A DNA stretch of 64,000 bases from Hydrolagus affinis. Taxonomy: Eukaryota. Each line of letters begins with the position of its first letter. Position 1 is the first letter of the stretch. Position numbers: made by a program. The stretch covers positions 1 through 64,000 of the forward strand of contig JAAILG010001411.1 in assembly GCA_012026655.1 (NCBI GenBank), in the 5' to 3' direction. Below, piece by piece: positions 42,001 through 45,000 of the stretch.

Positions 42001-45000
42001 TAATGATTTCGCTTCAAATTGAAATGGTTAAAATGTGAAATGCTGACAATAAAATGTTTACTTTTGAAATACAAAACAAGGGCAGGGCTACCCAACAGCA
42101 ACATTTACCGATCAATGGAGTTTTTATTTAAACTTTTAAGATAAATATATTGTCACGTGAATGACTTAAGGTTAAGATAATGCCTTTTATCGTCATTTCA
42201 GACTCAATATTCACATTAAAGCAATTTTCTAGACAATTGGGTATAAATGTGCATGCACATGGTTTGTGCGTACAAGAGTGTAATTATGGAAAATATATAT
42301 AGTGCATGTACATGTGTATTCATGTGCGTGAATTAATAAATGTTAAGAGTAATTTACACAGAACAAATGAGAGGACAAAGTTTAAATACAATGCTATGTT
42401 CTGCTAAATCTGGGACATGTTTTTAAAGAAGATCAGATCTTTGGAGCAAAAAACAGCTTTGGGAATGGGGGACAGAAATTCCGTGGAAATTATGAAATTG
42501 ATGAATGACTGCCAATTAGTTTCCATAAATGGTTGCTAACTGCTCATTGACCCCATTTACATGAAGTCGATAGTGACGAGATTAAATCTAGTCAATAAAT
42601 ATGAAAAATCATTATCCAGGCCCATTTACATGCAGTCAAAAGGCCACTGATTTGTTCAGGGGTTCTTGACTCCAAGGAAATTGGAGACATTTCATGTGTC
42701 AGCCTGGCTCAGTTGATAGCATTCTCACATGTAAGTCAGAAGATTGTGGGTTCAAGTTTCAAGAAAGTTTCAACCCTCAGTGCAGGCAGAAATTCCAGTG
42801 TAGTGCTGGATACTTTGGATGAGGCGTTATAGAATCATAGAATCATAGATTATGCCAAGATTCGGTCTGATTATTCAGGTGGAGGTTAAAAATTCTAATC
42901 TAAAAGAGAAGGGAATTTCTCCCATTCTCCAGGCTACATTCCACCATTGTCCAGGCTACAATCCAACAGATAAAATTGGTTAGTTAGTAAAACTGTCTGC
43001 CATTTTTGCCTACATTATAGTCACTAAACTTTAAAATAAATCCTATGACGCTTTTTGAGCTTTCCTGCAAACATAAAAAGGCGCAATATTAAATGCAACG
43101 TTTATTAATAATGACGGATGCTCCGCTATAGAATACTTTGATTAGTTTGGTCAACAAATTCCACATCTTCTTGCAGCTAGGAAAAAGCAAGGTGCCATTT
43201 TACACTAATATTTTTGTTTTCAAAGACTACAAAGAGTTTAGGAAGTTTAACCGTAAGTTCCTAGGCTGGGGTCAGCAAAAACATTGCCATGACATCTTCA
43301 AATAACTAGTTGCTGAAATAAAATAAAGCAGTTATAAGCTCTGCAACTTCAAAGCGGTTGCCTCATAACAGCTTATTAGAAAACATGTAAACTAAATTTG
43401 TTTATTCATTTCAAGCATTACAATGGGGTAGTGTTTCAGAAAACTGACTGTATTTGAGGAAAGATGTGTGGGCAGTGATCCCGCAAGTTTTTGTGCCAGA
43501 CTATTTAACGTATGAAATATTGGTCTCTGACAGGGCCTAAACTAAAGGAAAATGCAAGTACACACATGTTAGTGGGAGGAGTTGGACCAAGTGAATCAAG
43601 ACTGAATTCCTTCTGAAGGTGTCTCGAGGTTCAGCAGCAACTTTTTCCTGGAGCTAGTAGATGTGGTTGAATTACATTTATAGAGCGCCCTTCATGGCCT
43701 CCCGATGTGAAGGGCGTTCTATAAATGTAATTTTGTTGTTGTTGTGTGAGGGAGCAATGCCATGGACATGCACCTTTTCCTCCTCCGCCCCCCCACCCCG
43801 AGACAAACCATTTAGCTCCCACTCTGTTTCCCTCTCACAGTTTTCAGATGTATTGAGTCAGTCCAGTGAGCACATAAGGGAAATCAGCAGTTTGGAGTTA
43901 GAAACACACAGCATGGTTCAGTTAAAGCAGTCACATTACTGGGGATATAAATACATTTTATTTGAACAAAATATTGTTGATATCCTACCATTGTCCCTAG
44001 TCTTTTCTTTGTTCTATTTGTTCACATTTTCTACAAGGATATAATTTTTCAAAGTTCTGTTGAATTCACCAGCAACATACAACACAAGTATATAGAGATC
44101 AAACTCCCTAATGCAAGAGGTATCAAGCAATTTTAAGACATCACTTTTGAGGTAATATGACCCTCTTATGTCTTGTTAGATGTGCTGTCCTGAAATTTAC
44201 CCCCATTGCACTCTCTGAAGGACCTGATATGCCCAAACAAATTGCTTTTTATATTGAATACAAGTAATTAAATATTTCCAAGTGTGCAATCAAAATCAAA
44301 GAGTTGAAATTGGTTTAAATTGGAAATTAGACTCTGAATCAATGTGCATGCATTGTGTAAACGTGCAGATAACATCAGCCTTGCCTAAACCTTGCCTAAT
44401 CCTGTTTTGATGTGGCCCAGCTGGAAGGCTGCATGGTTGAATAACAAACTGAAGCTAAGCAAAATGTATATTGCAGCAAATAGATTTATAGCCATTGCTG
44501 TCAAGTACCTTGTATTGTCCTTTCAGCATCTGTTCGTCCAGCACTACGGTCAGCTTCCACCTCTTGGGTCACAGAATCTAACAAAGGGGATAGATTGGAG
44601 TATTGATTGCATTTCTCAAATGCGCGATTTGTTATGCAAAATATGTTTTAATTCTGTTTTACATTTTGACAAGGTCAGGCTTTTTACCAGTGAATTATGC
44701 CATGCTATCGGCATTTTAATCAGCCAGTTTAACAATTTGAATACAAAGTAAATAGACTGCTGTAGTAGCAGCATTTGCGGCACACTGCCAACTGTGAGAG
44801 ACCACATGATTTCATTAGACTCTGTCGCAGGTCATTTGTGGGTACTTACCATTCAGCACCCGGAGGTTGTCCGTAGAGGCAGCCTGTTTCAATGTCTGCT
44901 CTGCTTGTTCTCGCCGCTTGGTCTCAAATTCAAGTGCTTCCTGCAATTTCCTTTTTGCCTTCTTCTCCTTCTTTAACCGTTTCTGAATTATTGCTGAAGA

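What the first reader, a model, noticed from the sequence alone, without database searches (positions are those of the whole stretch)
43670..43732. Pre-miRNA-sized hairpin built from two inverted L2 tails in the last DACH1 intron
Seen: a 63-nt foldback with arms 43670-43694 and 43708-43732 (24/25 complementary) and a 13-nt loop. Each arm matches the L2/SINE 3' terminus seen elsewhere in the window (40905-40940, 54287-54322), and only the right arm keeps the (gtt)n tail. Known: mammalian miR-28, miR-151 and miR-95 arose from oppositely oriented L2 3' ends. Inference: this may be an independent cartilaginous-fish L2-derived miRNA or endo-siRNA, co-transcribed with DACH1 and complementary to the many SINE/L2 tails in the transcriptome.
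Basis: partly seen in the sequence, partly recalled or inferred. Interest (0 to 1): 0.7.

Follow-up and report, generated by a model that had tools for sequence, protein, structure and literature searches.

The report
Foldback retrotransposon tail in DACH1 intron
The 63-base hairpin is real, but it looks like the scar of one faulty retrotransposon insertion in the last intron of DACH1, and it is too short to be a typical microRNA precursor.

Summary
Arms 43670-43694 and 43708-43732 are 24/25 complementary around a 13-nt loop, and 0 of 200 shuffles fold as well on either strand. Both arms independently match a profile of the SINE/L2-type 3' tail built without them. The locus lies in the last intron of DACH1 of Callorhinchus milii or a very close relative, but the gene is on the minus strand.

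Only the right copy extends upstream into family sequence (43698-43707) and carries the (TTG)4 tail. The left copy is a tail-less 25-nt inverted copy that abuts the 5' truncation point. That is the anatomy of one aberrant target-primed reverse transcription event, not of two separate elements.

On the DACH1 sense strand the stem is 25 bp with one A.C mismatch and unpaired flanks. The Microprocessor optimum is about 35 bp (PMC7174388). No Rfam family reaches its threshold. The best sub-threshold hit, mir-1597 at 39 bits, is matched or beaten by an unrelated palindrome used as a control.

Small-RNA expression and conservation could not be tested. Verdict: an ordinary, probably neutral foldback insertion, with a small residual chance of being a young proto-miRNA.

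The parts
43670..43694 (-). Left arm. A tail-less inverted copy of the last 25 nt of the unique L2/SINE-type 3' end. Read on the minus strand it is the element sense.
   Evidence: The tail profile hits the minus strand at 43707-43671 with E 1.1e-4. On the minus strand it is followed by CAACCAC, not by a (TTG)n tail.
43695..43697 (.). Junction or filler bases (TGG on the + strand) between the inverted copy and the 5' truncation point of the direct copy.
   Evidence: these bases match neither the family sequence upstream of CCTCCC in the two closest copies nor the palindrome. Assigning them as filler is inference.
43698..43732 (+). Direct, severely 5'-truncated L2/SINE-type 3' end of 35 nt. Its last 25 nt (43708-43732) are the right arm. 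Its first 10 nt (43698-43707) make up most of the loop.
   Evidence: BLAST to 48499-48454 at 80% and 40896-40941 at 78%, starting at 43698; profile positions 18-53, E 1.3e-5; alignment.
43733..43748 (+). Microsatellite tail of the direct copy: (TTG)4 at 43733-43744, then TGTG.
   Evidence: The same kind of tail follows the closest copies at 40937... and 48453....
43662..43669 (+). Left flank TGTGGTTG. It holds the same two 4-mers (TGTG, GTTG) as the right end of the tail (43741-43748, GTTGTGTG) but in swapped order. It may be the remnant of a TG/TTG-rich target site. No clear target-site duplication.
   Evidence: sequence read directly. Interpretation inconclusive.
25596..44508 (-). Last intron of DACH1 (18.9 kb), the host of the hairpin. 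The hairpin begins 776 nt after the 5' splice site.
   Evidence: Flanking exons are 44509-44577(-) and 25558-25595(-, DGRLYLKTSVMY stop). Upstream exons are 44850-44993, 45163-45310 and 46389-46535 (all -).
48450..48524 (-). Closest relative in the window: a roughly 75-nt 5'-truncated tail-only copy of the same subtype (TGTAATT + TTG-type tail).
40390..40945 (+). Longer copy of the same subtype: the 3' part of a repeat with no tRNA head, ending in the same tail.
   Evidence: One search finds no tRNA hit here. A protein search with one ORF remnant found nothing, so its LINE/L2 identity is not shown directly.

Best explanation
The hairpin is the footprint of one aberrant retrotransposition event.

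Proposed sequence of events (inferred): an L2-type element RNA, LINE or partner SINE, was reverse-transcribed from a nick in a TG/TTG-rich site. Synthesis stopped after about 35 nt of unique sequence. The 3' end of the nascent cDNA then turned back and copied the cDNA itself for 25 nt (snap-back synthesis). A less likely variant is that the other DNA end primed a second short cDNA on the same RNA end (twin priming).

The result is a direct 5'-truncated tail carrying its (TTG)n, fused at its truncation point to a tail-less inverted copy of itself. The loop of the hairpin is the stretch of cDNA beyond the turn.

The hairpin sits in the last intron of DACH1 and is transcribed on the minus strand as part of the pre-mRNA. 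It most likely has no function and is degraded with the intron. What is shown: the anatomy, the family membership of both arms, and the intron location. What is inferred: the one-step mechanism and the lack of function.
For: Anatomy:
- In the alignment with the two closest copies, only the right copy continues upstream into family sequence (CCTCCCGATG against CCTCCCAATG and CCTCCTGAAG) and downstream into (TTG)n. The homology of the left copy is limited to the 25 nt (BLAST start at 43698).
- The left copy ends to the base at the boundary between unique tail and microsatellite, and it has no tail. Target-primed insertion needs that tail.
- The arms are 23/24 identical in profile columns, the highest of 210 pairs among 21 copies. 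Both keep the CpG-containing GGGCG core that the two closest copies have lost.
- The family does produce tail-only truncated copies: 48450-48524 is about 75 nt.

Opportunity and precedent:
- The tail is very abundant. 27 profile hits at E<1e-3 lie in 64 kb, of which 13 are the seeds and 2 are the arms. More than 520,000 SINE copies share the L2-2_CM tail in C. milii (PMC5499810, Results read).
- Snap-back is a documented class of 5' junction for non-LTR TPRT. The cDNA 3' end primes synthesis complementary to the cDNA, giving upstream target joined to antisense element sequence (PMC11371274, passages).
- Twin priming is described in PMC2912911 (passages).

Against function:
- On the sense strand the stem is 25 bp with an A.C mismatch and the flanks are unpaired, against an optimum of about 35 bp (PMC7174388).
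- No Rfam family reaches its threshold. The control palindrome at 59524-59690 gives 9 sub-threshold miRNA hits at >=39.3 bits.
- Base rate: more than 6,000 one-step hairpins in primates yielded at least 18 miRNA genes (PMC10710096 abstract).
Against: - No clear target-site duplication brackets the structure. The flanks are low-complexity TG/TTG, so a single insertion is not proven.
- No microhomology is visible at the presumed snap-back priming point. The bases next to the inner ends of the arms do not pair on the minus strand.
- Nothing explains why the inverted copy stops exactly at the tail boundary under snap-back.
- The near-identity of the arms is not unique. Other pairs of independent copies reach 0.92-0.95 in the same 25 columns.
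- No empty site was available. The flanks are unique in the window and no vertebrate genome collection was on hand.
- Lack of function is argued from structure and base rates only. No small-RNA data were examined. The eshark miRNA set of 693 loci (PMC3964593) could not be compared with this sequence.
Confidence: 0.6

Rival explanations
1. Two-step origin by a replication template-switch mutation. An ordinary 5'-truncated tail inserted first. Later a DNA polymerase switched strands locally and wrote an inverted copy of 25 nt next to it, creating the hairpin at the DNA level.
For: Template switching makes perfect hairpins in one event and is frequent. It accounts for more than 6,000 suitable hairpins in primates and is enriched in introns among those that became miRNAs (PMC10710096, abstract and introduction). 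The anatomy, an inverted copy next to its source with a short spacer, fits. The lack of a TSD around the whole structure is not a problem for this model.
Against: The left arm ends exactly at the boundary between unique tail and microsatellite, and its inner end lies 3 nt from the 5' truncation point of the direct copy. Under a template switch both coincidences would be chance. Under a retrotransposition accident they are expected landmarks.
Confidence: 0.15
2. Two independent insertions of the same tail family in opposite orientation, as proposed for mammalian mir-28/151/95, followed by deletions that trimmed the left one to 25 nt.
For: Tail copies are dense: 27 profile hits at E<1e-3 in 64 kb. 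Independent copies can be 92-95% identical over these 25 columns. True head-to-head element pairs exist in the window, for example tRNA-like heads at 6462-6525 and 6609-6672.
Against: The left copy lacks the tail needed for target-primed insertion, and it lacks all family sequence upstream of the 25 nt. It would need two precise deletions that leave the arms co-terminal to the base. No other copy in the window has the arms' sequence within 3 mismatches.
Confidence: 0.07
3. Whatever its origin, the hairpin is a working small-RNA gene. It is excised from the DACH1 intron and diced into roughly 22-nt RNAs that pair with the many SINE/L2 tails in transcripts.
For: It lies in the sense transcript of an expressed developmental gene. 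The stem is stable, with a 13-nt loop. Intronic L2-derived miRNAs exist in mammals (PMC6433296). C. milii has many lineage-specific miRNAs, and three precursors match SINEs (PMC3964593; PMC5499810). The arms are better preserved than the neighbouring copies.
Against: - The sense-strand stem is 25 bp with a mismatch and has no lower stem. That is about 10 bp short of the Microprocessor optimum (PMC7174388).
- The sense-strand loop has no UGU or GUG.
- It is not at a splice site: 776 nt and 18 kb from the two ends of the intron.
- No Rfam family reaches its threshold, and the best hit is no better than the hits of a control palindrome.
- The SINE-related eshark precursors match the head or conserved domain, not the tail (PMC5499810).
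- The base rate for such hairpins is well under 1% (PMC10710096).
Confidence: 0.05

Closest known systems
Snap-back 5' junctions of non-LTR retrotransposon insertions (seen for R2-protein-mediated TPRT in human cells, PMC11371274)
   Same: Direct 3' end with its tail, 5' truncation, then element sequence in antisense orientation joined to the upstream target. The inverted part is a copy of the same cDNA.
   Different: Here the element is an L2-type tail in a chimaera genome, and both parts are very short (35 and 25 nt). No target-site duplication and no priming microhomology can be shown. The event is inferred from a single old locus and was not observed.
5'-inverted L1 insertions made by twin priming (PMC2912911)
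   Same: One retrotransposition event yields a direct 3' segment and an inverted 5' segment of the same element.
   Different: In twin priming the inverted segment normally comes from RNA upstream of the direct segment. Here it duplicates the direct segment completely, starting at the tail boundary, and the top-strand end (GTTG) has at best wobble complementarity to the RNA.
Mammalian L2-derived intronic miRNAs (mir-28, mir-151, mir-95 and others; PMC6433296; Smalheiser and Torvik 2005, seen only as a citation)
   Same: A hairpin whose two arms are L2-type sequence in opposite orientation, located in an intron of a protein-coding gene, with many potential self-targets in the transcriptome.
   Different: Those precursors come from two distinct L2 elements, are canonical DGCR8/Dicer substrates, and are conserved. 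Here the arms come from one event and the stem is only 25-27 bp. There is no sequence or Rfam match to those families, and expression is unknown.
Hairpins created by replication template-switch mutations (PMC10710096)
   Same: A near-perfect short hairpin born in one step from pre-existing sequence, in an intron.
   Different: The arm boundaries here coincide with retrotransposon landmarks (tail boundary and truncation point), which favours an origin by a reverse-transcription accident.

Membership tests
Canonical animal miRNA gene | Pri-miRNA stem of about 35 bp (lower stem plus roughly 22-bp upper stem) flanked by single-stranded RNA, with an apical loop of >=10 nt | tested here: not met
   On the sense (minus) strand the stem is 25 bp with one A.C mismatch, the flanks are unpaired and the loop is 13 nt. 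On the plus strand the stem is 27-29 bp. Criterion taken from PMC7174388 and PMC10710096.
Canonical animal miRNA gene | Reads of 20-24 nt from both arms with uniform 5' ends and 2-nt 3' overhangs | not testable with these tools
   No small-RNA read data and no eshark miRNA sequences (JX994303-JX994995, named in PMC3964593) were reachable. Paper supplements are closed.
Canonical animal miRNA gene | Match to a curated miRNA family at its gathering score | tested here: not met
   One search finds only 4 tRNA hits in the window. In some searches the best hit is mir-1597 at 39.3 bits against a gathering score of 93. The control palindrome gives 9 hits at >=39.3 bits, all below their gathering scores.
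Canonical animal miRNA gene | Conservation of the hairpin in related species | not testable with these tools
L2-derived miRNAs of the mir-28/151/95 type | Arms contributed by two distinct L2 elements in opposite orientation | tested here: not met
   The left arm has no tail and no family sequence beyond 25 nt. It abuts the truncation point of the right copy.
L2-derived miRNAs of the mir-28/151/95 type | Intronic, in the sense transcript of a host gene | tested here: met
   Last intron of DACH1. The gene is on the minus strand.
L2-derived miRNAs of the mir-28/151/95 type | Sequence or structure homology to those precursor families | tested here: not met
   None of mir-28, mir-151 or mir-95 is among the 9 matches at E<=10 in 43550-43850.
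Mirtron | Hairpin ends defined by the splice sites of a short intron | tested here: not met
   The intron is 18.9 kb. The hairpin starts 776 nt after the donor and ends about 18 kb before the acceptor.
L2/SINE-type 3' tail family of C. milii (the tail that PMC5499810 says CmiSINEs, SacSINE1-CM and L2-2_CM share) | Sequence match to the conserved 3' tail followed by a short tandem-repeat tail | tested here: met
   A profile built from 13 other copies hits both arms (E 1.3e-5 and 1.1e-4). See also the alignment. The right copy carries (TTG)4. Equating these window copies with the named Repbase families rests on the description in PMC5499810.
L2/SINE-type 3' tail family of C. milii (the tail that PMC5499810 says CmiSINEs, SacSINE1-CM and L2-2_CM share) | The partner LINE is an L2 (reverse-transcriptase gene upstream of the tail) | tested here: inconclusive
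   Pfam found no RT domain in 122 ORFs of >=70 aa. A protein search with an ORF remnant upstream of the 40945 tail found nothing.
Snap-back or 5'-inverted TPRT insertion | Direct 3' end with tail, 5' truncation, and a tail-less inverted segment of the same element at the truncation point | tested here: met
Snap-back or 5'-inverted TPRT insertion | Target-site duplication flanking the whole structure | tested here: inconclusive
   The flanks TGTGGTTG (left) and GTTGTGTG (end of tail) are low-complexity. GTTG could be a 4-bp duplication or part of the tail. No empty site was available.

The most novel reading that the evidence does not exclude
A single snap-back retrotransposition of an L2-type tail created, in one step, a Dicer-length hairpin inside the DACH1 pre-mRNA. 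That hairpin is processed by a non-canonical route into small RNAs antisense to the hundreds of thousands of SINE/L2 tails in chimaera transcripts. This would be a one-insertion route to TE-derived miRNA or siRNA birth, distinct from the two-insertion route described for mammalian mir-28/151/95 and from replication template switching.
Probability: 0.04. Interest if true: 0.6.

Novelty: new member of a known kind. Interest (0 to 1): 0.15.

Why it matters
If the hairpin is neutral, as seems likely, the locus is a tidy natural example of a class of non-LTR 5' junction (snap-back or 5' inversion) that the papers I read describe for R2-protein-mediated insertion in human cells and for L1. Here it would involve an L2-type element in a cartilaginous fish. 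It also shows how easily a genome with over half a million copies of one tail makes pre-miRNA-sized hairpins. If small RNAs were found, the locus would show that a single retrotransposition accident can create a TE-targeting small-RNA gene in one step. That bears on how quickly new miRNAs arise. Neither outcome changes what is known about DACH1.

Tried and rejected
- Rfam at gathering score over the whole window found only tRNA-like SINE heads.
- Rfam at permissive E-values on the hairpin gave mir-1597 at 39.3 bits. I took this as a lead, then set it aside as evidence. The unrelated palindrome at 59524-59690 gave 9 miRNA-family hits at >=39.3 bits, with E down to 5e-8, so such hits reflect any long inverted repeat. 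The three papers that mention mir-1597 (listing only) do not address its origin.
- Pfam on 122 ORFs of >=70 aa found no DACH or RT domain, because the exons are shorter than the cut-off. I located the exons instead with a codon-usage scan and motif look-ups.
- I searched for an empty-site paralogue of the flanks within the window. There is none.
- A protein search with an ORF remnant of the longer repeat copy, meant to show its L2 identity, found nothing at E<=0.001 among 306 candidates.
- I considered arm identity as proof of a single event and rejected it as decisive. Other independent copy pairs reach 0.92-0.95.
- A target-site duplication could not be called in the TG/TTG-rich flanks.
- I searched one DACH1 exon on its own.
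Full report
**Observation**

One search shows the sequence. One search finds a single inverted repeat in 43400-44000: arms 43670-43694 and 43708-43732, 25 nt, 96% complementary, 13 nt apart.

- Folded as RNA, 43660-43742 gives -40.0 kcal/mol on the + strand (z -7.7; 0 of 200 shuffles as good).
- On the - strand it gives -33.9 kcal/mol (z -10.7; 0 of 200).
- The one imperfect position is G.U on the + strand and A.C on the - strand. A single transition in a perfect palindrome always gives this result, so it says nothing about which strand matters.
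- The 25-mer, allowing up to 3 mismatches, occurs only at the two arms.
- Of 16 short-range inverted repeats in the whole window, this is the only one at >=90% complementarity.

**What the arms are**

A profile built from 13 other copies of the conserved repeat 3' end in this window, leaving the hairpin out, was run over the window.

- It finds 27 hits at E<1e-3. Of these, 13 are the seeds themselves.
- The two arms are found independently: + strand 43698-43733 at E 1.3e-5, and - strand 43707-43671 at E 1.1e-4.
- Four tRNA-like SINE heads are present.

Luchetti et al. (PMC5499810; abstract, Results and one Discussion section read) report for Callorhinchus milii:

- 302,861 CmiSINE and 218,294 SacSINE1-CM insertions;
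- a shared 3' end that is homologous to the tail of the LINE L2-2_CM.

I could not see their consensus sequences because supplements are closed. Equating the window's copies with those named families therefore rests on their description.

The closest relatives of the arms are 48450-48524(-), a tail-only copy of about 75 nt, and the 3' end of a longer repeat without a tRNA head at 40390-40945(+). Both end in TGTAATT plus a TTG-type microsatellite, as the right arm does. A protein search with an ORF remnant of the longer copy found nothing, and Pfam found no RT domain. The L2 label for this subtype is therefore not shown directly.

**Gene context**

I take the window for chimaera sequence, not human.

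- A codon-usage scan and sequence reading located exons on the minus strand.
- One exon (44851-44991, 47 aa) was searched on its own. 2,195 of 2,263 candidates scored E<=0.001, and of the 120 listed every named hit is either DACH1 or an uninformative name (hypothetical or uncharacterised protein, SKI/SNO/DAC domain-containing protein). Two UniProt C. milii entries match at 100%.
- In a local tblastn those two entries match the window through three or four exons, and even through their intron read-through ends. There is one amino-acid difference, in exon 46389-46535.
- The source is therefore C. milii or something very close to it.

The minus-strand exons are 46389-46535, 45163-45310, 44850-44993, 44509-44577, and a last coding exon at 25558-25595 (DGRLYLKTSVMY, then a stop). 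The last exon matches the C-terminus ...TIQDGRLYLKTTVMY of named reptile and bird DACH1 records among the hits.

The last intron is 25596-44508. The hairpin begins 776 nt after its 5' splice site.

**Anatomy and origin**

One search aligns both copies with the two closest relatives and shows an asymmetry.

- The right copy continues upstream of the arm into family sequence (43698-43707, CCTCCCGATG, against CCTCCCAATG and CCTCCTGAAG in the relatives). Downstream it continues into (TTG)4.
- The left copy matches only over the 25 nt. It has no microsatellite tail and ends to the base at the boundary between unique tail and microsatellite.
- Only 3 nt (43695-43697) separate the left copy from the point where the right copy's family homology begins.

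Ten of the 13 loop bases therefore belong to the direct copy. The unit is a direct 35-nt 5'-truncated tail with its microsatellite, plus an inverted copy of its own last 25 nt at the truncation point.

A tail-less 25-nt fragment cannot insert by target-primed reverse transcription. Two independent insertions would therefore need two precise deletions afterwards.

The simplest account is one faulty event, for which there is documented precedent.

- For R2-protein-mediated insertion in human cells, one class of 5' junction is called snap-back. The cDNA 3' end primes synthesis complementary to the cDNA, leaving upstream target joined to antisense element sequence (PMC11371274, passages).
- Twin priming (PMC2912911, passages) is a related route. 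It normally inverts a more upstream part of the RNA, not the same part.

**Weak points of this account**

- No target-site duplication can be called in the TG/TTG-rich flanks (TGTGGTTG on the left, GTTGTGTG at the end of the tail).
- No priming microhomology is visible at the turn.
- The exact stop at the tail boundary is unexplained under snap-back.
- Arm identity is not decisive. At 23/24 it is the top of 210 pairs, but other independent pairs reach 0.92-0.95.
- A replication template switch acting after an ordinary insertion (PMC10710096, abstract) would give the same hairpin. I rank it lower because both arm boundaries fall on retrotransposon landmarks.

**Age**

The arms differ at 1 of 25 positions. 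Both keep the GGGCG core that the two closest copies have lost.

Using the SINE rate proposed in PMC5499810 (about 1e-3 substitutions per site per million years), one difference corresponds to roughly 20 million years. The uncertainty spans well over an order of magnitude. This is inference only.

**Is it a miRNA or siRNA gene?**

The precedent is real. PMC6433296 (passages) states that many human L2-miRNAs come from two nearby L2 elements in opposite orientation, lie in introns, and depend on DGCR8 and Dicer. That paper cites Smalheiser and Torvik 2005, which I did not read.

The structure here argues against the canonical route.

- On the DACH1 sense strand the stem is 25 bp with an A.C mismatch, and both flanks are C/A-rich and unpaired.
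- A hairpin of pre-miRNA size in the genome lacks the lower stem that Drosha needs.
- CNNC motifs do occur 1-17 nt after the stem. The flank is simply C-rich, and there is no UGU or GUG in the sense-strand loop.
- It is not a mirtron.

Database and literature checks:

- No Rfam family reaches its gathering score.
- At permissive thresholds the best hit is mir-1597 at 39.3 bits against a threshold of 93. mir-28, mir-151 and mir-95 do not appear.
- An unrelated palindromic element at 59524-59690 collects 9 miRNA-family hits at >=39.3 bits, none reaching its gathering score. Such scores therefore reflect any inverted repeat.
- In C. milii, 693 miRNA loci were called from small-RNA sequencing of 16 tissues (PMC3964593, passages).
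- The three precursors found similar to these SINEs match the tRNA-like head or the conserved core, not the tail (PMC5499810).
- My searches (listings; the papers above as stated) found no report of a tail-derived miRNA in this species. I could not compare the deposited precursor sequences or see the supplementary lists.
- Base rate for one-step hairpins: more than 6,000 suitable hairpins in primates gave at least 18 miRNA genes (PMC10710096).

**What stayed unchecked**

- Small-RNA reads.
- The eshark miRNA sequences.
- Orthologous introns in other chimaeras and sharks.
- A genome-wide count of similar foldbacks.

**Verdict**

The feature is real, and it is a retrotransposon-tail foldback in the last DACH1 intron. 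It is most likely the neutral product of one aberrant insertion (confidence about 0.6 for the TPRT-accident route, and higher for neutral foldback in general). The miRNA/endo-siRNA reading is not excluded, but it has no positive evidence and one structural strike against it (about 0.05). Interest is low.

Noticed in passing
window 59524-59690: A much longer palindrome: 77-nt arms, 82% complementary, with a 13-nt spacer. It begins TACAGTG and lies in AT/TA-rich flanks, so it looks like a miniature inverted-repeat DNA transposon nested in another repeat. It scores 39-45 bits against several plant miRNA models in Rfam, none reaching its gathering score.
   Followed up: partly
window 6457-6528 (-) and 6609-6680 (+): Two tRNA-like SINE heads lie head to head, forming 64-nt arms at 73% with an 83-nt spacer.
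   Followed up: partly
window 43667-43735: Sub-threshold Rfam match to mir-1597, which the papers listed name as a chicken miRNA (gga-miR-1597). It scores 39.3 bits against a gathering score of 93, and the shared letters include AUUACAU and AUGUAAU at the stem base. The control palindrome shows that such scores are generic. I did not resolve whether mir-1597 is itself derived from an inverted repeat tail.
   Followed up: partly
window 44824-44849 and 44504-44508, against P0014 and P0015: The two UniProt C. milii DACH1 models end in translated intron read-through (after exons 44850-44993 and 44509-44577). They lack the last coding exon found here at 25558-25595, so the public models appear to be truncated at the C-terminus.
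   Followed up: partly
window 46389-46535 (-): One amino-acid difference (S instead of T) from both UniProt C. milii DACH1 entries, in an otherwise identical match. The window may come from another individual, another assembly, or a very close relative.
   Followed up: no
window 2393-2430 and 37299-37336: The same 23-nt overlapping palindrome (83% complementary) occurs inside two SINE copies, so it is an intrinsic feature of that SINE body and not a local event.
   Followed up: no
window 40250-40945 and 45758-46290: Two copies of a GC-richer repeat with ORF-like remnants and no tRNA head. One ends in the same tail subtype as the hairpin. It is probably the 3' part of the partner LINE, but neither Pfam nor a protein search confirmed this.
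   Followed up: partly
window 43632-43641 and 43734-43744: On the + strand (antisense to DACH1), an upstream CAGCAGCAAC can pair with the (TTG)n tail and extend the hairpin through a three-way junction. This does not exist on the sense strand.
   Followed up: no
   Followed up: no
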